A DNA stretch of 64,000 nucleotides from the human T2T-CHM13v2.0 reference genome, Homo sapiens. The notes under the pieces were generated by a model, which searched no databases, was not told the DNA's origin, and saw only the letters and a list, made by a program, of their open reading frames with translations. Shown here piece by piece: positions 9,961 to 50,902 of the stretch; the first letter of the stretch is position 1, and every line of letters starts with the position of its first letter. The stretch lies in the NCBI RefSeq assembly GCF_009914755.1, contig NC_060945.1; one strand, written 5' to 3'. The position numbers and the translations under genes are program-made.

Positions 9961-12915
9961 CCTCTAGGACTGGATGAATCCATTGTAAGCATTCGCAGCA
10001 CCCCACTCCCCACGCTGTTCAGTGGTCCTGCAGAAGTTATTAAGCTCCTTCTGCAGGCTCTTGCCCGGCAGGGTCCCGGGCAGGCTGTGGCCTGCTTCCT
10101 CCACATTTCAGAGCTGAGGTGCTGGTGCGGGCAGGTCTCCTGAGCTGGGGGGTCAGCTGTGTGGCCAGTGATGGTGACGCCTCAGGCCGTGCATGGCCGG
10201 GGAGGCGGCCCTGCCTCTGCACTCTTTTGACTCCATGACTACTGGTGTCTTCGGACGCCAGAGTCGGGGGAGCAACCATGGGGCACCGCCCCTGCCTGGG
10301 GAGGCAGCACGAGGCCTGAGCCCAGCTTACAGGGGGACATCCACCCCCGCTGAGAGCCCCACCTTCACGGCGAGGATCTGTAGAAGAAGACATTTGATAT
10401 TACTCGGCAAAAAAAACAAGAAACGAAAACACAAAAAGAGCTCCTCTGAAGAAGAAAAGGTATTTGCGCTGTGGTCCACCTAGAAATAATGTTGTTGGCA
10501 CAACTAGAGCATTCCTCAGTCATTCAGGAGCACTCCCTGCCGGTGCGTCCACATGTCCCAACCCCGATAGATGAGGCGCTGTTCGCCCGTGGAGGGGTCA
10601 GGTTGTCGTGACCTTATCTTTACCCTTAGGCCGTCCATCCCGGGGCCTGGGGTTTCCTGCGCCAGTCACGGTGGGCTGTGTAGGTGGCCATGTGTTCGGT
10701 CTTTCCCCAGGAGGTACGTACCATGTGCTGGGAGGCCTGGAGGCTGAGCCGCCCCCCGCGCCTATGAGTTGCACCCTCACAGCGGCGGCCAAACCTCCTG
10801 CTCACTTTGCCCCATAGGAAGAGGTTAGAGTGAGGCGGAACGGGTTGGAATCCCAGCTCTGACACTCACTCACTGTGGGATGCTGCACAAATGACTTCCT
10901 CTCCCTGGGCCTCAGTATACTCATCTGTGGAATGAGATTACAGCAACATCCCACCTCCTATGGCGATGGAGTAAATTAAGGCACAATGCCTGTGTGGGTT
11001 TAGCCCAGTGCCTGTGCATGGCGACAGTGCATTTCTGATGGCCCCTCCAGCGTTCAGGGCTAACTCTTCCAGGATTAACTTTCATATCTTGGATGAGAGC
11101 TCATCTAGGAAGGTCTCCTAGCAACCCCTGGGTTCCCACTGGTCCTTCCGCCTCACGGGGCTCCTTTTTGAACCCCTCACATCATTTCCATTCAATCTCT
11201 TGCTCCTAACAGCACGGCCCCTATTCCTTCTCTTTCCCAACATCTGCTCTCAGGAGAGATTCTCATACAGTGTGCATTTGTTCTAGAGTGAGGGTCATCA
11301 CTGGGCTTCTATGAGGCACCGCTGTGAACCCTCTGCACCGACCTTAGCCAGAGGAGCAGGACTCCCACCGGCATCCTTCTGCGTAAGAGGCCTTGTGGGT
11401 CTTCTGGGGCTCTGGAATCAACGCCGCTTTTCCTGGGGCCAGAGTAGGTGGACCTGAGCTCCCCAAAGCTTCCAGTTTGCTGCCTGCTCCCACCCGCCTC
11501 GCCACTGCGCGAGCCCTTTCCATCCCCTCTGCAGAGTGAGAGAAGGGCCGTGAGTGAGGATCCTGGCCTAGGGCTGTCACCATCCCCCTCACCTGCTGGC
11601 CAGGCTAACCTACTGCAGGCTGCTTCCTTTCCTTAGGTTCACGGGTACCGCTATTTGTCCAGCGTCCATTTGCGGTGGCATTAGGATGAGGTGCTCTGTG
11701 CCCTCTTTCTCCCAGTGTGAATCTGACACACGCCCCCAGGAGAGTCCGAGGGGCATCACTTCTGGAGGACGCCCTGGGCCCTGAAAGACAGCTCATGGTC
11801 CAACTGAGGAGCCTGCACCTTGCTGGGACAGGGTGGCCCAGGAGATCTGGGGTCTGTACCTGCTCCTGGACCCTCTCCAGCTTGTTGTTCTGGGTGGGGC
11901 CAGCTCAGGAGGGGCACCTGGGCTGGGAGTCTCTGAAGCAGCTGCCCCCATTGCTCCAGGAGAGGGCTCAGCCCTTGTCCCAGCTGCGGGGCCAGTGGGA
12001 GCAGTGTGCAGCGTCCTGCCCTGGGCTCTCGCTGGCTCTGCGCCCTCGCCTGGCCAGCCCGGGAGGGTGCAGAGGCTCACTGGCAGCTCTTCCTGCTCCC
12101 ACACCTGCCTCTTCCTCTGAACTGGAGGGCCGGCAAGCCTCAAGGCTTAATGCAAGACTAAATACAGCTGTCAGCGCCTTCCTCTGAGCTCGCTTGGGAG
12201 CTGTCTGGGGGGACGGAGGAGTGAAGATTAGGTGAATCACCACGCCCCAAAATAGACATCAGGTGCTTGGTGGTTTGAGCCAGCGTCTTGCCTGGTGCCT
12301 CTGCTGTCCTCCGTGGACTGCAGCCCAGCCAGCCTAGGCTCCAACCCCAACCCGGAGCACCCCCAGGAGAGTTACCTGTAGGCTGGAGGTTGAGTAGCAC
12401 CCCAGGAAGAGGTGTGGGTTGGCACCAGCAGTGTTCTGATGGCAAGGCAGCCCCCAGGCCATGCTAGGGTGGTGGCATAGCTGTTGTGGCAGCTGACGAG
12501 CTTGCTGTTCTCCAGGGAAGCTGCTTCTGTGGAGACCGCAGGAAGCACAACAGAAAAAAACCCACAAAACGAGCCTCAGAGCACTCAGCAGCAGGGTTTT
12601 CTTTGCCCAGAACTGAACTGGTCCTGCATCGTGGCTTAAATTCCACCTGAATTGGAACTTCTCTGGCATGCCGGGTGTGGGTTCGTTCCCGAGCACCTCC
12701 ACCCGCAGCTCTACAGAAGCACGCGCAGAAGGCACTGTCACCTCCAGCAGGGCCTGGCCCTGACGACCTCGGCTCAGCCACCCCATGGGAGCTACATTGT
12801 CCTTGTCCTCACCTTCATTCCCCTCAGGCGGGCCCCCCGGTGACATGACATCACAAGTCTTTGGGCACAGGAGGAGGGACATACCTGTGGAGACACCCGG
12901 GTGCTCTAGAATATG

Positions 12916-13260
12916 GCGCGGGAAGTTCATGTTGTACTCCGCTGGACCCCACCCCCGGCGTGGGAAGTTCATGTTGTACTCAGGCTGACCCCCACCCCCC
13001 CCACGAGAGAAGTCCATGTTATACTCAGGCTGACCCCCACTCCTGGCATGTAAAGCTGGTGTTATGCTCAGCTGGACCCCCACCCCCGGTGTGGAAAGCT
13101 CATGTTATACTCCACTGGCCCCCACCCCCGGCGTGGAAAGCTGGTGTTATACTCCGCTGGACCCCCACCCCCGGCGTGGAAAGCTGGTGTTATACTCCGC
13201 TGGACCCCCACCCCCCATGCGGAAAGTTCACGTTATACTCAGCTGTGTCCCCACCCCTGG
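12916..13260. repeat. Minisatellite, about 43 bp x 8
   Basis: Unit ggaagttcatgttgtactccgctggacccccacccccggcgt. Confidence 0.92.
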
Positions 13261-14959: not shown

Positions 14960-15790
14960 GTGACCTGGTGAGCCCCACGGGCGGTGGACTGTCTGCGGCA
15001 ACAGGGGTAACGGTCCCAGGTCTTGGCACGGGAACAGCAGCCCTCGGCCTAGAGAACTTCACCTTGTCACCCAGTCCTGGGTACCCTCAGGGCACCCCGG
15101 CAGCAGGCCAGGCCTGGACCCCAGAGCCCTCACCCAGAAGAGGGGGCAGCAATGTGGTCGGGTATGACAGGAACAACACAGGAAAAGGCGTGGAGCAGGA
15201 GGTGCCCAGCACTGCCCCGGGTCTGGGGATGGACCAGGGGAGCCCCAGCCAGGTGAACCCCAGCCAGGGGAGCCCCAGCCAGGGGAGCCTCAGACAGGAG
15301 AGTACCAGCCAGGCGAGCCCCAGCCAGAGGAGCACCAGCCAGGGGAGCCCCAGCCAGGTGAACCCCAGCCAGGGGAGCACCAGCCACGCGAACTCCAGCC
15401 AGGGGAGCCCCAGCCAGGGGAGCCCCAGCCAGGAGAGCCCCAGCCAGGGGAGCACCAGCCAGGCGAGCCCCAGCCATAGGAACACTATCGGGGTGATAGG
15501 CACCACCTCCTCCCCGAAGGCTCCTGGGTCAACCCACAGCTTCCCTCCTGGGGCCACAGATGGCCCACTGGCCCTCCCTGGACAGCTACAGGGAAACTCC
15601 ACCATGGAGCCACCCTCCTGGCCTTCCCCTACTGAGGACCCCACCGGCCACTTCCTGTGGCATGCCACCCGTTCCACCCGGGAAACACTTCTGAATCCCA
15701 CGTGGCTGCGAAATGAGGACAGTGGACCCTCCGGTTCTGTAGACCTGCCATTGACCTCCACCCTCACAGCTCTGAAGACCCCCGCCTGTG
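14960..15790 (+). CDS. UMODL1: UMODL1 Ser/Thr/Pro-rich linker exon (831 nt long form; short form is 14960-15201 plus 15586-15790)
   Basis: ggcag|GT GAC CTG...GCC TGT G|gtgagt; open throughout (ORF 14860-15894); internal GT..AG segment 15202-15585 is 384 nt. Confidence 0.92.
15234..15476 (+). repeat. Coding 15-bp tandem repeat (SQGSP/SQAS units) within the exitron
   Basis: cagccaggggagccc repeated about 16 times with variants. Confidence 0.92.
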
Positions 15791-31085: not shown

Positions 31086-31322
31086 GGTTTACACCATCAT
31101 CGAGGACCTCCACGGCGCTGGGAATTTTGTTACCGAAATGCAGTTGTTTATCGGAGACTCTCCCATACCTCAGAATTATAGCGTGTCTGCCAGTGACGAT
31201 GTCAGGATCGAAGTGGGGCTCTACAGGCAGAAAAGCAACCTCAAGGTGGTCCTGACGGAGTGCTGGGCAACCCCGTCTAGCAACGCCCGGGACCCCATCA
31301 CCTTCAGCTTCATTAACAACAG
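31086..31322 (+). CDS. UMODL1: UMODL1 coding exon, ZP-C (237 nt, phase 2-2)
   Basis: tgcag|G GTT TAC...AAC AAC AG|gtaggg; VYTIIEDLHGAGNFVTEMQLF...VVLTECWATPSSNARDPITFSFINN, classic ZP-C CWATP motif. Confidence 0.96.
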
Positions 31323-31513
31323 GTAGGGCTCAGGAGTGCAGGCACCCCCATCCAGCAATGCCTGGGGCTTTATTAACAATAGGTAGGGCTCAAGAATGCA
31401 GACATCCCCATCCAGCAATGCCCAGGGCTTCATTAACAATAGGTAGGGCTCAGGAGTGCAGGCACCCCTGTCCAGCAATGCCCAGGGCTTCATTAAGAAC
31501 AGGTAGGGCTCAA
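31263..31513 (+). repeat. 60-bp tandem repeat spanning an exon/intron junction (4 donor copies)
   Basis: Lines 31321, 31381, 31441 and 31501 all begin aggtagggctca; donors at 31323, 31383, 31443, 31503. Confidence 0.95.
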
Positions 31514-31751
31514 GCAGGCACTGCCATTGCCTGGCCTTGCTGTGTGGCCAGCTCTGGGCTCTGCAGGATTTCCAGGCGAGTGCTGTCATGGACCTGGGTT
31601 TTGGGGAACAAATGAGGTGCCCGGTCCTCGACTTCCACGGAGCCTGTGGAATCTGCGAGTGTCGTCAGATGTAGTCGTGAGTAAACTCATCTGAGAACAA
31701 GGACAGCGGGGCTCGCTGACAAGCAAGGAGTCCCATTTCCTCTCTTCTCAG

Positions 31752-33792: not shown

Positions 33793-33877
33793 AATTGCAA
33801 TAACTTTCGGTTGCTGCAAAATAGTGAAACCTCTGCCACACACCAGATGTCCTGGGGACCCCTCATCCGGTCTGAAG
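33793..33877 (+). CDS. UMODL1: UMODL1 coding exon, end of ZP-C and external hydrophobic patch (85 nt, phase 0-1)
   Basis: A11-cag|AAT TGC AAT...TCT GAA G|gtgagt; NCNNFRLLQNSETSATHQMSWGPLIRSE (SWGPL resembles a ZP EHP). Confidence 0.9.
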
Positions 33878-35201: not shown

Positions 35202-35428
35202 CTGACTCCCACTTTTATGACAGAAGGAAAGAAACTTCCATGTCCTTTAAGCCACTGCTATTTTGATTTTTTTCTCTTGCTTGCTGCTGAGCCTAATCCT
35301 AGTTGGTTTTCCTTTTTTTGTTGTTTTTTTCCCTAATCTTGATGACCCTCTCCCTTCTCTGTCTTTCCCTGTATGAGAACTTCTGGGGTTTGGATGCAGG
35401 GTGTGAGCCAGAATCTGAATGCTGCTCA

Positions 35429-35763
35429 GGTCTTGGCCATGAAGCTGGGGAACAGGAGGAGGGAGGTCTCGGCCATGAAGCTGGGGAACAGGAGGAGGGA
35501 GGTCTCGGCCATGAAGCTGGGGAACAGGAGGAGGGAGGTCTCGGCCATGAAGCTGGGGAACAGGAGGAGGGAGGTCTCGGCCATGAAGCTGGGGAACAGG
35601 AGGAGGGAGGTCTCGGCCATGAAGCTGGGGAACAGGAGGAGGGAGGTCTCGGCCATGAAGCTGGGGAACAGGAGGAGGGAGGTCTCGGCCATGAAGCTGG
35701 GGAACAGGAGGAGGGAGGTCTTGGCCATGAAGCTGGGGAACAGGAGGAGGGAGGTCTTGGCCA
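35429..35763. repeat. Near-perfect 36-bp VNTR x 9.3
   Basis: ggtctcggccatgaagctggggaacaggaggaggga; internal copies identical. Confidence 0.97.
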
Positions 35764-40299: not shown

Positions 40300-41158
<859 letters not shown>

Positions 41159-41541
41159 TGCACTCTCTATTTTTTAATTGCTCCTCTGGGTCTGGGGATG
41201 GCTCATTCCTCTGTGTTGTGGAGCCTGTGTAGGCCCAACCCGTGTGTCCATGCAGGGAATCTGACTGGGCTCTCCCCCTCCCACCAGGAGGACCTGCTGG
41301 TCCCGCGCAGCCCCACCCTCATGGCCCAGGCCTCCCCAGGCTGCGCTGTCCTTACTGCAATGCTGTCCTGGGCTTGGACACCTTCCTCAGCTTTGGTAAC
41401 CCACAGGCACACGGGTGCACACATGGGCCTTGCATTCTCCGTGCTTCAGATCCATCAGCCCCGGATCCGGGTGGAGGGCTTGCTCTATCGCATTCCTCCC
41501 GTTTGTGCAGATCTCTCACCTGTGCCTGTCTCCTCCCCGAG

Positions 41542-41723
41542 GTGAGCCTCCACATGCAGAAGCAGGCCTGGGTGCCGGTTATGTGGTCCTTATTGTGGTG
41601 GCCATCTTCGTGCTGGTGGCGGGAACAGCCACCCTTCTGATCGTGCGCTACCAGAGAATGAATGGGAGATACAACTTTAAAATCCAGTCCCACAACTTCA
41701 GCTACCAGGTGTTCTACGAATAG
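41542..41723 (+). CDS. UMODL1: UMODL1 last coding exon: TM helix and cytoplasmic tail, stop TAG 41721-41723; exon probably runs to the donor at 41744
   Basis: ccgag|GT GAG CCT...; GEPPHAEAGLGAGYVVLIVVAIFVLVAGTATLLIVRYQRMNGRYNFKIQSHNFSYQVFYE*. Confidence 0.93.
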
Positions 41724-41885
41724 GAGGCGCAGGCTGACAGGAAGGTGGGTGTGGAGTGGGGTGGGAGGTGCAGGCTGACAGGAGGGTGGGTGCGGAGTGG
41801 GGTGGGAGGTGTAGGCTGACAGGAAGGTGGGTGTGGAGTGGGGTAGGAGGTGCAGGCTGATAAGAAGGTGGGTGCGGAGTGGGGG
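41722..41885 (+). repeat. G-rich 41-bp tandem repeat x 4 containing the last 5' splice site
   Basis: Yaggctga at 41730, 41771, 41812, 41853; GTGGGT donors at 41745, 41786, 41827, 41868. Confidence 0.93.
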
Positions 41886-42640
41886 CATCTGATGTGCATG
41901 TCCTGCCTTGCCATCCATGGTGATGGGGACGGCCAGCAGGATTCAGCCAAGGGTAGATATGTGTGTGTCTGTGTTTTGTGGCCCTTTACGGAGCGTGCAG
42001 CCTCCCTTCTGAAAAAGCAACCAGGAGCAGGCAGAGAGGGGAAACTACAGGTAGGTTGGTGAAGGTTCGATTGCTTCACACACCCACTGGACTGGCTCCA
42101 CGATACCAGCGGCAGTGCTATATGGGTGACCACAGGACCCAGGGGCCCACCACAAATCCCATCTCTGCCACCCACTCTCTTGACCACCCGGGCAAGGTCC
42201 TGAGCCTCTTGGTGCCTCGGTTTCATCATTTGTAAAAGAAACCATGGTAACATTTCCGGCCACGTGGAGGGTGTGAGATTTAAATGGGAAGATGCCCAAG
42301 AGGCCCCGCTATGGGGTCTGACACCCTCAATTGCTGGTGGATCCTAACGATGGACCTCGGCCGAGTGTCCCTGAAACCTGGTGCTCGTAGGGATTGTCAC
42401 GTGTGGTGTGGATGCCACAGTGGACCCCCCACACCTTGCTGCTCATGCCCGCAGCCCCGACTTATGTATGACCTTTTGAGGCTGAAGATGCTTCTCTGAT
42501 CTGCCCTGTGGACTTTTGTTTTTCCTGGGCCTGCACATAGTTCACCACAAATGAATGACAAGCATTATGGAGGGCAGTATGGTTAGTATAAACCTTCAGT
42601 GGGAAACACCAAGACTGGGACTTTTGTAAAGATTTTCAGA

Positions 42641-42936
42641 TTTTTTTTTTTTTTGAGATGGAGTTTTGCTCTTGTTGCCCAGGTTGGAGTGCAGTGGTGC
42701 GATCTTGGCTCACCACAACCTCCACCTCCCAGGTTAAAGCGATTCTCCTGTCTCAGCCTCCTGAGTAGCTGGGATTACAGGCATGCGCCACCACACCCAG
42801 CTAGTTTTGTATTTTTAGTAGATACAGGGTTTCTCCATGTTGGTCAGGCTGGTCTCCAACTCCTGACCTCAGGTGATCCACCCGTCTCGGCCTCTCAAAG
42901 TGCTGGGATTACAGGCGTGAGCCACCGTGCCCGGCC
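42641..42936 (-). mobile_element. Alu (AluSp/Sq-like)
   Basis: Full reverse Alu. Confidence 0.95.
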
Positions 42937-42955
42937 AAATTTTGAGATTTTTCTA

Positions 42956-43613
<658 letters not shown>

Positions 43614-43637
43614 AACTGCCCACCCTCTCAGCCAACA

Positions 43638-45683
43638 GGAGAACAAGGAAAGACGAGAGGCCAATTTTCCCTCGATGTTTTAATTTCAAGGAGGGGGACA
43701 TCCAGCATGACCCAGCACCGACCCACCAGATGTCCTTAGAAAGCTAGTGGGATAGTGTTGGCCTCATCGCTGGGATTCGCATCTTAAATATTAAGTAAAA
43801 GGCACTGACATTTCCTCGTAACTCTATCTAGGGAGGTGACTGGTCTCTAGCACTGGTCCCGTCTATGCTGTAAGGGTCCTGAGACCCCAGAATACTGCGC
43901 ATGTTAGTTACCAGGAGTCCTGGCAGGAGAGACGGGAAAGACAAAGCTAACACAAGCGTCCCCCTCACATGGGCAGAATCACTTCCACAAGCGGGTGGCG
44001 TTTTCTTTGAAGTTGCCCAGCAAGGGCAGCATGGAGGTTGCCTTTTGGAAACGTGTGCTGTAGTCTGGGCTTTGCTGGTGACCTGGGAGGATTGGCTTGA
44101 GTTCTCTGGGCCCCATTTCCTCATTTTAAGATTGGAGCCAGTGTCTACTACACTTTGCTGAGTTGTTTCAAAAATCTGTTATCTCAAGAAAATAAGGACC
44201 TGAGCACAGGAAAGATGGGCTGGGCTGGAGAAGCTGCCTGCCCGACGAAGAGGGGGTGGGCTGATGTTGACAATGTCTGTTGTTTCCCAACATCCCCGTG
44301 AGGTTGTGCTGTTATTAGCATCCTGTGTTATAGATGGGAATCCAGGGCAGAAAGGGATAGACGTCCCAGGTCACGTGGCTAGGAGGTCCAGGGCAAGAAG
44401 GGATAGGTGTCCCAGGTCACGTGGCTAGGAGGTCCAGGGCAGGAAGGGATGTGTCCCAGGTCACGTGGTTGGGAGGTCCAGGGCAGGAAGGGATAGGCCT
44501 CCCAGGTCACATGGCTGGGAGGTGGCCGAGCTGGGGCTGCATGGGATTTCCGTTTGGCTCTGGGGTCAGCTCTCTTAGCTACCAAGCTTAGAGCCTTTCT
44601 TACACTAGTGTTCACATGACTGATGGACCCTTAGAACAATGCCCCTTGCCTTTCCCCTTCATCAGAGACCCGGAGAATTTGTATTTTAGCAGCTGTGCAA
44701 GGGGATCCACAATTCTTAATTCTTGCAGTGGGGACACCAGGTGTCCCAGTTGAGAGGCAGCAACTGTTGTGGTTACAGGGAAGGAGCCTTCCCAGGACCC
44801 CTGAGCCTCCCCGGGAGGCAGGTGCTGCTGCTCAATTGTGGTCTGGGTCCTCAGCCACCTCCGGGGATCCCAAAGGGGCAGGGAACAACAGCGAAGTTTC
44901 AGTTCAACTTTACACTCTAATAGTGAAAAATAAGGAAGCTTCCTCAGTTTGGTAGCTTTTGGCCTCTGGTTTGGGGCCCATGGGGTTTGGGCCATGAAGA
45001 CCCCCTCCTCACCAACCCCATTGCCTCCCATCCTGGGCAGGAGACATTGTCAATACCAGCCCGCCCCCTCTTCGTCAGGCAGGCAGCTTCCCCAGCCAAG
45101 CCCGTCTTCCCTGTGCTCAGGTCCTTATTTTCTTGAGATAACAGATTTTTGAAACAACTCAGCAAAGTATAGTAGACACTGGCTCCAATCTTAAAATGAG
45201 GAAATGGGGCCCAGAGAACTCAAGCCAATCCTCCCAGGTCACCAGCAAAGCCCAGACTACAGCACACGTTTCCAAAAGGCAACCTCCATGCTGCCCTTGC
45301 TGGGCAACTTCAGAGAAAACACCACCCGCCTGTGGATGTGATTCTGCCCATGTGAGGGGGATGCTTGTGTTAGCTTTGTCTTTCCCGTCTCTCCTGCCAG
45401 GACTCCTGGTAACTAACATACGCAGTATTCTGGGGTCTCAGGACCCTTACAGCATAGACAGGGCCAGTGCTAGAGGCCAGTCACCTCCCTAGATAGAGTT
45501 ACGAGGAAATGTCAGTGCCTTTTACTTAATATTTAAGATGCGAATCCCAGCGATGAGGCCAACACTATCCCGCTAGCTTTCTAAGGAAATCTGGTGTATT
45601 GGTGCTGGGTCATGCTGGATGTCCCTTTCCTCGAAATTAAAACATCCGAGGGAAAACTGGCCTCTTGTCTTTCTTTGTTCTCC
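43638..45683. repeat. Large inverted repeat: arms 43638-44278 and 45042-45683, spacer about 763 bp
   Basis: Mirror ORFs 43828-44124(-) and 45196-45492(+) are nearly identical; arm ends traced by hand. Confidence 0.96.
44341..44525. repeat. About 46-bp tandem repeat x 4 (MIR-like core amplified) in the inverted-repeat spacer
   Basis: tccagggcagRaagggatag..tcccaggtcacgtggctaggagg. Confidence 0.88.
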
Positions 45684-46157
45684 CGGGGCTCCTGTCTTTC
45701 GAAGTGAGAACTGTCTCACCAGTTCTAAAGTTCCTGCAGACATCTGCTCTTTGAAAACCATCAGCCAACCCACCCACCCCCACCAGGTCGACCCTTGGGC
45801 AGCCCCACTCAGAGATGTTCCCAGAGTCCTGGTGGGTTCTCCACGGATGGTGCAAAGGTGCAGGGGCCCCAGCTGTGCTCGTCTGGCTCAGGTATCTTCA
45901 CCAGCCACCCCCACCAGTTGGCGTGTCAGGAGCATCGCTCACCTGAGGGCAGGCACAGCCCCATGGTCCCCGTTCCACTGGGCACTCTGGGAGTGGCTGC
46001 CTTTTCATTAGGGGCTTGATCTGTCCCTCTCCAGTAAACATAGACGCCATGTCCTCGGGTTGGTGTTTCCTCCACTACCCCTCCTCCTGGGGTTTTCTGT
46101 ATTAACTTTACCTTTCCTGCGTGCAAGCTGACCCAGGTGACCTCTTCCTCCACACAG

Positions 46158-47055
46158 GTCGCCGTGAGTCAAGCTGCCTCCAGAACCTCAGAGCTTCCCT
46201 GGTGGGCTCCCCCGGGATCCCCAGTGTCTCTCTGCACCTCCACCCATCCCTCGGTTCTTAACTCTTCAAGCCTTAACGGAGGTCTGCTCTGACGGGTGGG
46301 CTCTGCCAGAGCCCGGGTGAGCCCAGAAAGGAAGACAGCAGCCACCGTCTGTCCCGAAGAGGCAGGCCGTCCTGTAGGTCCTAGAGGAGCCACAGCCCAG
46401 GGGCAGATGAAGGGGCTGCGGAAGACGGGGGCAGTCCTGGGGGTGCTGCGGCTACACCACCACCCGCGCGGCCCCCGCAGCCCAGACCTCCCAGGCCTGT
46501 GACCCTCCACACCAGCCCTCAGAACCCTCCTGGGCTTGCCCTCCCTTGGCGTCCGTCACCCTTTGGCAAATATAGAATATTTCACATTCTCAGAGAGACC
46601 CGACCGCGCTCTTGATGCTCTTTCGAAAATAGGTCAGTCTTAGAAATATACTGCTAATGTTATTTTTAGTGGATGTTTATGCTGTTTGACTTTTCTCCTG
46701 TGTACCAAGGTATTGCTTTTATTTACACGACAGCGACTCAAAAGGCACTCGATTAATGTGACAACCTTTTCAATAAGCAGAAATAACGTAGGTACACATC
46801 ACTCTTTACATTTTTCTAAGCATTTTCACAGCCGTTTCTTCATATAATCCAACCACAGTGGGAGGTGTGATTTACCCATTACACAATGAGAAACCAGAGG
46901 AGCCGATGAGTTACTTAATTGAGGTCACAGAATGAATTAGCAAGAAAATGGTTCTAAAATCTAAGTATTTTAGTCTAGAATTTTCTCCATTACATCATCC
47001 TAAGAGATAATGCTCTGTACTTCATTTGAAATAAACTGGAATTGTATTAGATAGC
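46158..47055 (+). other. UMODL1: Probable non-coding terminal (3'UTR) exon of UMODL1; 3' end approximate
   Basis: Pyrimidine-rich acceptor cctcttcctccacacag|G at 46157; AT-rich tail with AATAAA at 47030; donor AAG|GTGGGT at 41744/41745 after the stop. Confidence 0.7.
47030..47035 (+). terminator. Polyadenylation signal AATAAA
   Basis: Canonical hexamer followed about 35-45 nt later by a GU/U-rich element (gagtgttttt, 47071-47080). Confidence 0.7.
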
Positions 47056-47566
47056 TCACACCTGAAAGTAGAGTGTTTTTCCTCAGTGAACTTAGAATTA
47101 TAACATGGCCTTAGTTTTCAACCCATGATACTAATTTTGTTGAATATAATTAATTGTCATTCATACAGAACATTTGGGGAAAGGAGTATTTTGATTTACT
47201 GGATATTCTCAGAGTCAGTAAAGAATGACAGTGGGTAATATGTGTGGATCACAGATTCTGATCAAGTAGAATCAATCGCATAAGACACTGAAATGTGGCT
47301 GGTTGTGCTGGATGCTCCATTTGGGATGGTCCATCACAGGCTCGCTGAGCATCCAACGAGGGCCGGTGCTGTGTTGGGCACGCTGGGGAGGCCAGAAACG
47401 CATCTCTGGTTCTTCCCAAGTCATGTCCCGCTGTTCTGATGTCAGCTGAGGAGCTTTCACTTGCCTTTCTTGGAAGAGCATGACACATATTCAGTAAAAC
47501 CAGCTGTTGAGCCCCATGACTGTGTGGCTCTTTGGATTTCAGATAAAGTCATTGACATATATTTAA

Positions 47567-50467: not shown

Positions 50468-50902
50468 TCACCCCCCACGCCCCATCTCTGTCCCTCCTGG
50501 GGAGGAAGGCTGTGGTGGGAGTCAACCCTCGCATCCCATCTCTGTCCCTCTTGGGGAGGAGGGCTGTGGTGGGAGTCAACCCTCGCATCCCATCTCTGTC
50601 CCTCTTGGGGAGGAGGGCTGTGGTGGGAGTCACCCCCCGCACTGTGTCTCTGTCCCTCCTGGGGAGGAGGGCTGAGGTTGGAGTCACCCCCTGCACCCTG
50701 TGTCTGTCCCTCCTGGGGAGGAGGGCTGCAGTGGGAGTCAATCCCCGCACCCCGTCTCTGTCCCTCCTGGGGAGGAGGGCTGTGGTGGGAGTCACCCCCC
50801 GCACCCTGTCTCTGTCCCTCCTGGGGAGGAGGGGTGCAGTGGGAGTCAATCCCCGCATCCCGTCTCTGTCCCTCCTGGGGAGGAGGGGTGCAGTGGGAGT
50901 CC
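50468..50902. repeat. 54-bp minisatellite x 8
   Basis: cYcYgtctctgtccctcctggggaggagggctgtggtgggagtcaMcccccgca; 18-aa periodicity in the ORF track. Confidence 0.95.

What the first reader, a model, noticed from the sequence alone, without database searches (positions are those of the whole stretch)
41722..41885. Second donor-multiplying minisatellite, straddling the NMD 50-55 nt boundary
Seen: a 41-bp G-rich unit repeats the 3'UTR-intron donor four times (GTGGGT at 41745, 41786, 41827, 41868), which is 21, 62, 103 and 144 nt past the stop codon. Established: an exon junction more than about 50-55 nt downstream of the stop triggers EJC-dependent NMD. Inference: only donor 1 gives a stable mRNA, so donor choice or repeat number would set expression without changing the protein. 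The GGG runs are hnRNP H/F and G-quadruplex candidates. Two independent donor arrays in one gene is striking.
Basis: partly seen in the sequence, partly recalled or inferred. Interest (0 to 1): 0.7.

Follow-up and report, generated by a model that had tools for sequence, protein, structure and literature searches.

The report
UMODL1 repeat copies a splice signal
A short DNA repeat that varies in length between people copies the splice signal of UMODL1's last intron four times, but the cell likely uses almost only the first copy, as it does in the clotting factor VII gene, so this is probably an ordinary repeat rather than a switch that would send the message to destruction.

Summary
Four 41-bp units (41721-41884) each carry stop-codon position, 21 nt of 3'UTR and the intron-22 donor. 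GTGGGT lies 21, 62, 103 and 144 nt past the stop. It is a catalogued common VNTR: 5 units in GRCh38, 4 here, short alleles in 263 of 2,504 people. The architecture is a known kind: F7 intron 7, CBS, IFI6, LMNB2, PDGF, ABCA7. In F7 only the first donor is used, whatever the copy number. In ABCA7 the second-unit donor gives about 2% of transcripts, independent of length. All full-length annotated UMODL1 transcripts use donor 1, and mouse has the intron at 24 nt. Donor 2 is the weakest and lies under the one predicted three-tier G-quadruplex. The array is not a lead expression VNTR in GTEx tables (weak test). The 55-nt rule is also unreliable for true 3'UTR introns. Verdict: silent pseudo-donors with a small leak, not a shown switch. 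No RNA data could be tested. Interest 0.2.

The parts
41721..41884 (+). 41-bp minisatellite, 4.0 units (41721, 41762, 41803, 41844), 57% G; a common VNTR (5 units in GRCh38)
   Evidence: VNTRseek row chr21:42137620-42137822; danbing-tk row
41542..41744 (+). UMODL1 exon 22 (203 nt): hydrophobic, likely transmembrane segment, tail, stop and 21 nt of 3'UTR
   Evidence: hub annotation; translation
41721..41723 (+). stop codon TAG, the first three bases of unit 1
41742..41750 (+). donor 1 (authentic), AAG|GTGGGT, junction 21 nt past the stop; 20 nt of G-runs in the next 70 nt, the most of the 16 annotated donors in the window
   Evidence: 4 Ensembl transcripts at 21 nt, mouse at 24 nt
41783..41791 (+). 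pseudo-donor 2, AGG|GTGGGT, 62 nt past the stop; weakest of the four
41784..41806 (+). four G3+ tracts (loops 1, 8, 1-2 nt); predicted three-tier RNA G-quadruplex covering donor 2; created by the same A-to-G difference that weakens donor 2
   Evidence: -12.3 vs -0.4 kcal/mol with and without the G4 model; prediction only
41824..41832 (+). pseudo-donor 3, AAG|GTGGGT, 103 nt past the stop; identical to donor 1 from -3 to +8
41865..41873 (+). pseudo-donor 4, AAG|GTGGGT, 144 nt past the stop
41745..46157 (+). 3'UTR intron 22 (4,413 nt); acceptor ends at 46157
   Evidence: hub annotation
46158..47058 (+). last exon (3'UTR) with AATAAA at 47030
   Evidence: hub annotation
31307..31514 (+). the gene's other donor-spanning array (60 bp x 3.5) at exon 31086-31322; any downstream donor would put a stop codon right after the old junction, with 4 junctions downstream

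Best explanation
This is a common 41-bp minisatellite whose first unit spans the stop codon, 21 nt of 3'UTR and the donor of UMODL1's last intron, so the donor is copied four times; the spliceosome likely uses the first copy almost exclusively, and the others would act as silent back-up donors with a small leak that nonsense-mediated decay (NMD) likely removes. Shown: the sequence, spacing, polymorphism, annotation of donor 1 only, and a mouse intron at the same stop-proximal place. Inferred origin: local tandem duplication of a G-rich exon/intron border of an intron older than the human-mouse split; whether mouse has the repeat was not testable. Inferred mechanism: donor 1 is transcribed first, defines the shortest exon (203 vs 244/285/326 nt), is as strong as any later copy, and has the most downstream G-runs, which would enhance it via hnRNP H/F and dampen the donors behind them. 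The next copy in line is the weakest and is predicted to be folded into a G-quadruplex. Copy number would therefore change expression little. The copies would matter mainly if donor 1 were mutated, when donor 2 (62 nt) would take over as in F7.
For: Hub RefSeq table: no other exon end here among 6 transcripts. Ensembl: 4 of 4 full-length human transcripts at 21 nt; mouse Umodl1 at 24 nt. F7 intron 7 has the same GTGGGT core and first-unit geometry (checked in this genome). There only the most upstream donor was used, pseudo-sites up to consensus value 91 did not compete with a value-74 site, and 1-12 copies gave the same choice. By that paper's values, donors 1/3/4 are about 82 and donor 2 about 74 (analogy; position -3 differs). 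ABCA7: second-unit donor 2 +/- 1%, raised by cycloheximide, not affected by VNTR size. G-run nt downstream: 20, 14, 12, 9. G-rich elements between competing donors enhance the upstream one. UMODL1's 4 lead-VNTR rows in GTEx are other arrays. Most unproductive splicing behaves as noise.
Against: No RNA-seq junction counts were available, so first-donor dominance is inferred. CBS and IFI6 do use two further pseudo-sites, and CBS repeat length is reported to go with lower activity (table row and cited title only). Donor 3 equals donor 1 from -3 to +8. F7's array is C-balanced (35% G) while this one is 57% G, so F7 may not transfer; in F7, mutating G triplets had no effect, so the G-run step is not needed there. 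The eQTL tables report lead VNTRs only. The 2021 table scored this locus 0.924, below its 0.96 cut-off, and whether it was among the 15 VNTRs tested in 2023 is unknown.
Confidence: 0.74

Rival explanations
1. CBS/IFI6-like constitutive leak: donors 2/3 take 10% or more of splicing without regulation. NMD removes these messages and lowers output modestly, a little more on longer alleles.
For: CBS and IFI6 use two pseudo-sites besides the authentic one. Donor 3 equals donor 1 from -3 to +8. NMD would hide such isoforms from annotation; low-usage unproductive junctions do act as eQTLs.
Against: F7 none, LMNB2 and PDGF none, ABCA7 about 2%. Donor 2 is weakest and predicted to be occluded. Not a lead eVNTR.
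Confidence: 0.12
2. One reading: a regulated or allele-dependent switch between splicing and NMD. Lower hnRNP H/F, or alleles whose first unit carries the weak AGG donor, shift splicing past the 50-55 nt line and tune UMODL1 dose without changing the protein.
For: Geometry fits. The VNTR is polymorphic. hnRNP H/F levels shift competing donors in PLP/DM20. Umodl1 overexpression has a phenotype in mice.
Against: No annotated isoform (hub table). Mouse annotation shows only the 24-nt junction. True 3'UTR introns beyond 55 nt were not NMD-sensitising as a class in HCT116. F7 pseudo-sites stronger than the first still did not compete. Lead eVNTRs lie elsewhere.
Confidence: 0.08
3. ABCA7-like indirect effect: the array acts as a G-rich enhancer whose length changes exon 22 inclusion or intron 22 retention, not donor choice. 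Exon 22 starts with a motif that rebuilds a donor after splicing to exon 21; skipping it would give a form without the hydrophobic segment that escapes NMD.
For: In ABCA7, length changed skipping of the neighbouring exon, not donor use. The rebuilt site AAG|GTGAGC scores -9.6, the strongest of 16 junctions in the window. Inclusion of such exons depends on competition with the downstream donor.
Against: 1.7-4.9% of human exons have such a motif and the exon junction complex normally represses it. No skipped isoform in the hub table. The apparent match of an Ensembl row to exon-22 skipping is more simply explained by mid-gene exons.
Confidence: 0.06

Closest known systems
F7 intron 7 37-bp VNTR (Borensztajn et al. 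2006, PMC1557585)
   Same: First unit spans the exon-intron border; GTGGGT donor core repeated every ~40 nt; polymorphic; only the first donor annotated or used.
   Different: F7 is a coding intron with near-identical pseudo-sites and a C-balanced unit. UMODL1 is a 3'UTR intron, so a shift changes no amino acid; its second donor is weaker and the unit is 57% G. No sequence kinship beyond a 10-nt core.
ABCA7 intron 18 25-bp VNTR (De Roeck et al. 2018, PMC5954066)
   Same: Unit includes the donor; use of the second-unit donor gives an NMD substrate.
   Different: There NMD follows from a frameshift; the array reaches kilobases and its length drives exon 19 skipping and disease risk. UMODL1's array is about 3-5 units with no known phenotype.
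CBS intron 13 31-bp VNTR; IFI6 (6-16) intron 2, LMNB2 and PDGF arrays (as summarised in PMC1557585)
   Same: Minisatellites that repeat an authentic donor.
   Different: CBS and IFI6 use two further donors; LMNB2 and PDGF use none. All have 10-25 units; none is described there as lying in a 3'UTR. I saw only the summary, not the primary papers.
Stop-proximal and distal 3'UTR introns as NMD features (Gangras et al. 2020, PMC7310861; Riley et al. 2025, PMC13223760)
   Same: UMODL1 is listed as a proximal 3'UTR-intron gene in human (21 nt) and mouse (24 nt).
   Different: Regulated NMD genes with distal 3'UTR introns have observed, UPF1-sensitive isoforms; none is known here.

Membership tests
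Donor-spanning minisatellite (F7 intron 7 type) | Tandem array whose first unit spans an authentic exon-intron junction | tested here: met
   Unit 1 is 41721-41761; annotated junction 41744/41745
Donor-spanning minisatellite (F7 intron 7 type) | Donor sequence repeated in each later unit | tested here: met
   GTGGGT in 4 of 4 units; -2 position differs in unit 2
Donor-spanning minisatellite (F7 intron 7 type) | Copy number varies between people | tested here: met
   4.95 copies in GRCh38 vs 4.0 here; non-reference alleles in 263 of 2,504; assembly mean 194.3, SD 15.9, n=17 (published tables, locus matched by two neighbouring arrays)
Donor-spanning minisatellite (F7 intron 7 type) | Downstream copies are functional but normally unused | not testable with these tools
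   Annotation is [10 protein letters not shown] (hub table); needs a minigene or junction reads
Regulated splicing-NMD switch in a 3'UTR intron | Alternative junction more than 50-55 nt past the stop is possible | tested here: met
   62, 103 and 144 nt
Regulated splicing-NMD switch in a 3'UTR intron | The alternative junction is observed in transcripts | tested here: inconclusive
   Absent from RefSeq (hub) and from 4 of 4 full-length Ensembl rows; NMD could hide it; no read data
Regulated splicing-NMD switch in a 3'UTR intron | Isoform is UPF1/SMG1-sensitive and its share is regulated | not testable with these tools
   The one table likely to bear on it could not be read
Regulated splicing-NMD switch in a 3'UTR intron | Alternative sites conserved across mammals | not testable with these tools
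   No other mammalian genome held; mouse annotation shows only the 24-nt junction
Expression- or splicing-associated VNTR | Length or motif associates with host-gene expression or splicing | tested here: inconclusive
   eqtl False but below the quality cut-off; 0 of 4 UMODL1 lead rows; no UMODL1 hit in 10 supplementary files of a splicing-TR catalogue, one file unsearched
G-run / G-quadruplex intronic enhancer (hnRNP H/F type) | G-runs within about 70 nt downstream of the donor | tested here: met
   20 nt in 6 runs; the other 15 annotated donors have 0-15 nt
G-run / G-quadruplex intronic enhancer (hnRNP H/F type) | Canonical G3-N1-7 x4 quadruplex motif | tested here: not met
   No strict motif; one near-canonical motif with an 8-nt loop over donor 2 is predicted to fold
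G-run / G-quadruplex intronic enhancer (hnRNP H/F type) | hnRNP H/F binding and effect on splicing | not testable with these tools
   Needs CLIP or knockdown

The most novel reading that the evidence does not exclude
The array is a heritable, protein-neutral dosage dial: unit composition, not only length, decides it. Contracted alleles (about 10% of people carry a short allele) whose first unit has the weak AGG donor, or cells low in hnRNP H/F, would shift splicing to a stronger donor 62 or 103 nt past the stop and hand an intact-protein mRNA to NMD. It would be a natural 41-nt ruler across the 50-55 nt boundary on one endogenous 3'UTR.
Probability: 0.08. Interest if true: 0.5.

Novelty: new member of a known kind. 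Interest (0 to 1): 0.2.

Why it matters
As it most likely is, it matters little: one more donor-spanning VNTR in a tissue-restricted gene with no established Mendelian disease. Two practical points remain. A variant that destroys the UTR donor at 41745 would be expected to move splicing to the 62-nt donor and could lower mRNA although it lies outside the coding sequence. The array also offers four near-identical donors at 21, 62, 103 and 144 nt for testing whether the 50-55 nt rule holds for true 3'UTR introns, which recent papers dispute. If the novel case held, it would be a VNTR that sets gene dose purely through splicing-coupled decay. I found no such 3'UTR case in my searches, which miss most subscription journals.

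Tried and rejected
Genome search for related arrays: only the locus itself and one 70%-identity G-rich low-complexity tract on contig 5, so it is not a dispersed family by this search. No Rfam match at gathering score in 41000-47500. The bacterial promoter/terminator scan was irrelevant and empty. Six short Ensembl UMODL1 rows (distances 188-656 nt) at first seemed to fit donor 3 (574 vs 656, an 82-nt step) and exon-22 skipping (386). Rejected: one upstream stop plus exons of 255, 113, 138 and 220 nt in the middle of the gene explains 436, 574 and both 656 rows, and 188 fits a stop in the 220-nt exon; 386 stays unassigned. Local folding without the G4 model did not separate the donors (mean unpaired 0.41-0.46). 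A genome-wide count of triple donor-like motifs gave 1,448 matches; the 100 listed fall in about 13 loci on contig 1. The reversed-pattern control (84,041) was uninformative and I could not tell which are real donors. Gene-name search of the VNTRseek supplement was empty; coordinates found the row. Literature searches returning nothing. A 2023 Cell paper on VNTRs near splice sites (recalled) is not held, so it is not used as evidence. Earlier scan findings were not available. MaxEntScan/SpliceAI scores could not be computed; U1 duplex energy is crude and inflated by G-U pairs.

Full report
1. Observation. The window shows UMODL1 exon 22 ending at 41744, with the stop TAG at 41721-41723. TRF reports period 41, 4.0 copies, 90% matches and no indels; the repeat finder agrees. 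Phased at the stop codon, the array is four units (41721-41884) that differ at 3-5 of 41 positions. Joining the annotated in-window exons gives a 1,007-aa open frame whose end is unchanged for all four donors; the last junction lies 21, 62, 103 or 144 nt past the stop.

2. The donors are not equal. With a recalled U1 5'-end motif, duplex energies are -11.8, -10.4, -11.8 and -11.0 kcal/mol; unit 2 has G instead of A at -2. They rank among the top 5 of 268 GT sites between 41560 and 46156, together with an unrelated site at 42051. This score is crude. G-run bases in the 70 nt after each donor fall from 20 to 14, 12 and 9; the other 15 annotated donors in the window have 0-15. There is no strict four-tract quadruplex motif. 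G4-aware folding predicts a three-tier quadruplex over donor 2 (-12.3 vs -0.4 kcal/mol), none in the local folds downstream of donors 1 and 3, and a two-tier one just upstream of donor 1 in the whole-array fold. The base that weakens donor 2 also supplies its extra G-tract (sequence).

3. It is a known polymorphic locus. The VNTRseek supplement of PMC8096271 (passages and supplement rows seen) lists chr21:42137620-42137822, 41 bp, 4.95 copies in GRCh38, with non-reference alleles in 263 of 2,504 people and -2/-2 as the main call in 192 of them. The match to this window is anchored by two neighbouring rows: the 34-bp and 15-bp arrays have the same lengths and an offset within 23 nt. That method sees only arrays that fit in a 150-nt read, so 4- and 5-unit alleles are invisible to it. 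PMC8275641 (passages, one supplement row) gives an assembly mean of 194.3 nt, SD 15.9, n=17, and Vst 0.011. Alleles of about 3, 4 and 5 units therefore exist.

4. The intron is older than the human-mouse split, and donor 1 is the annotated donor. The hub's RefSeq table lists no other exon end here among 6 transcripts. The supplement of PMC7310861 (passages, 13 of 13 UMODL1 rows seen) gives 21 nt for 4 of 4 full-length human transcripts and 24 nt for mouse Umodl1 (3 rows under one transcript id); no zebrafish row appeared. The other six human rows are short transcripts; five are more simply placed mid-gene and one stays unassigned. Whether mouse or other primates carry the repeat could not be tested.

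5. Precedents. PMC1557585 (parts 1-4 of 6 read) describes this class directly: minisatellites whose first unit spans an exon-intron border. It names F7, CBS, IFI6, LMNB2 and PDGF; CBS and IFI6 use two extra donors, while LMNB2, PDGF and F7 use only the first. In F7 minigenes the most upstream intact donor was always chosen. Pseudo-sites up to consensus value 91 did not compete, only perfect sites did; 1 to 12 copies made no difference; mutating G triplets had no effect. I found the F7 array in this genome, with six GTGGGT donors 37 nt apart behind a 124-nt exon that matches factor VII. It shares only a 10-nt core with the UMODL1 unit and is far less G-rich (35% vs 57%). In ABCA7 (PMC5954066, passages and section 21) the second-unit donor gives 2 +/- 1% of transcripts, rises with cycloheximide and is not affected by VNTR size; length instead drives exon 19 skipping.

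6. The NMD step. The geometry fits the textbook rule, but two papers blur it. PMC13223760 (passages) found that true 3'UTR introns were not NMD-sensitising as a class in HCT116, with no difference either side of 55 nt. PMC7310861 found some introns under 50 nt NMD-sensitive, most clearly from 36 nt. So 21 nt is probably safe, and 62-144 nt is NMD-competent but not certain to be degraded. PMC10515962 (passages) treats most unproductive splicing as noise, yet shows that low-usage unproductive junctions can act as eQTLs; this cuts both ways.

7. Has the eQTL test been run? In part. PMC8275641 marks the locus eqtl False, but its quality of 0.924 is below the paper's 0.96 cut-off. PMC10234305 (passages, supplement rows) has 4 UMODL1 length rows from 15 nearby VNTRs: three name the 43-bp array at window 12913-13257 (thyroid, lung, spleen) and one names an array upstream of the window (testis). 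None names this array. Gene-level tables report one VNTR per gene, and I cannot confirm that this array was among the 15. The splicing-TR catalogue PMC10078293 had no UMODL1 hit in 10 supplementary files, with one unsearched; it used GangSTR genotypes and may not cover this repeat. Together this is weak evidence against a large effect.

8. Two arrays in one gene. The 60-bp array at 31307-31514 repeats a coding donor; any downstream copy brings an immediate stop. Of 9 minisatellites in the in-window gene span (period >=10, >=2.5 copies, >=80% match, overlaps merged), 2 hold one of 16 donors. In 200,000 random placements P(>=2) is 0.007 for first-unit placement and 0.16 for any overlap. This is a post hoc test on one repeat-rich gene; triple donor-like motifs occur 1,448 times in the genome. 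It is mildly unusual and gives no sign of design.

9. Mechanism. Shown: array, donors, distances, polymorphism, annotated use of donor 1, stop-proximal intron in mouse. Inferred: first-donor dominance through order of transcription, the shortest exon, equal or greater strength, and downstream G-runs that favour the upstream site. The G-run step rests on PLP/DM20 (PMC1919487, passages) and the statement, although F7 did not need it. Also inferred: a leak of a few percent cleared by NMD, and donor 2 as fallback if donor 1 is lost. Confidence 0.74. Rivals: unregulated leak of 10% or more (0.12), regulated or allele-dependent switch (0.08), indirect effect on exon 22 inclusion (0.06). The last rests on a rebuilt donor at the exon 21/22 junction, the strongest of 16 junctions; 1.7-4.9% of exons have one (PMC6224609, passages).

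10. Novelty and score. It works like F7 intron 7 and meets three of that kind's four defining features; the fourth is untestable here. It is not shown to be a splicing-NMD switch. The 3'UTR position, where a shift would change dose but not protein, is the only distinctive point. No paper on this repeat's splicing appeared in the listings of searches, which cover open-licence papers only. UMODL1 biology (PMC8874799, PMC3542605, passages) gives no disease in which a small dose change is known to matter. New member of a known kind; interest 0.2.

Noticed in passing
window 41542-41549 (start of exon 22) with 33875-33877 (end of exon 21): Exon 22 follows a GAG acceptor and starts GTGAGC, so splicing to exon 21 rebuilds AAG|GTGAGC, the strongest rebuilt donor of 16 junctions. 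Re-splicing would skip the hydrophobic exon and give a short new tail ending in the last exon, escaping NMD. A putative recursive-splicing exon; no transcript evidence found.
   Followed up: partly
window 12913-13257: 43-bp array about 300 nt upstream of the UMODL1-AS1 start. It is the lead expression VNTR for UMODL1-AS1 (whole blood p=6.6e-63) and for UMODL1 in thyroid, lung and spleen in PMC10234305. Already published; causality not checked.
   Followed up: partly
window 15234-15476: 15-bp x 16.2 repeat inside the 384-nt stretch that is intron in one isoform and exon in another (14960-15790); a common VNTR in 355 of 2,504 people. Likely a coding length polymorphism in the long isoform; frame not checked.
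   Followed up: no
window 31307-31514: 60-bp x 3.5 array repeating the donor of exon 31086-31322; copies 1 and 4 score equally, and any downstream use gives an immediate premature stop. Not found among the common VNTRs in the part read, but a one-unit loss would not fit a 150-nt read.
   Followed up: partly
window 42001-42058: A strong non-repeat donor-like site at 42051 (U1 score equal to donor 1), with an AG 50 nt upstream at 41999-42000: a possible 50-nt cryptic 3'UTR exon, which would place junctions beyond 55 nt regardless of the array.
   Followed up: no
window 43221-43240: Three AATAAA motifs in an A-rich end of the masked repeat 42628-43256 inside intron 22; a possible intronic polyadenylation site if the intron is retained.
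   Followed up: no
window 35428-35763 and 50468-50901: Highly homogeneous arrays (36 bp x 9.3, 99% matches; 54 bp x 8.0, 89%), likely variable between people.
   Followed up: no
G000:C1:53165404-53166415 (minus strand); G000:C14:99770333-99772046: Long arrays of a 28-bp unit with a near-consensus donor motif, and of a 37-bp unit with a GTGGGT core; gene context unknown.
   Followed up: no
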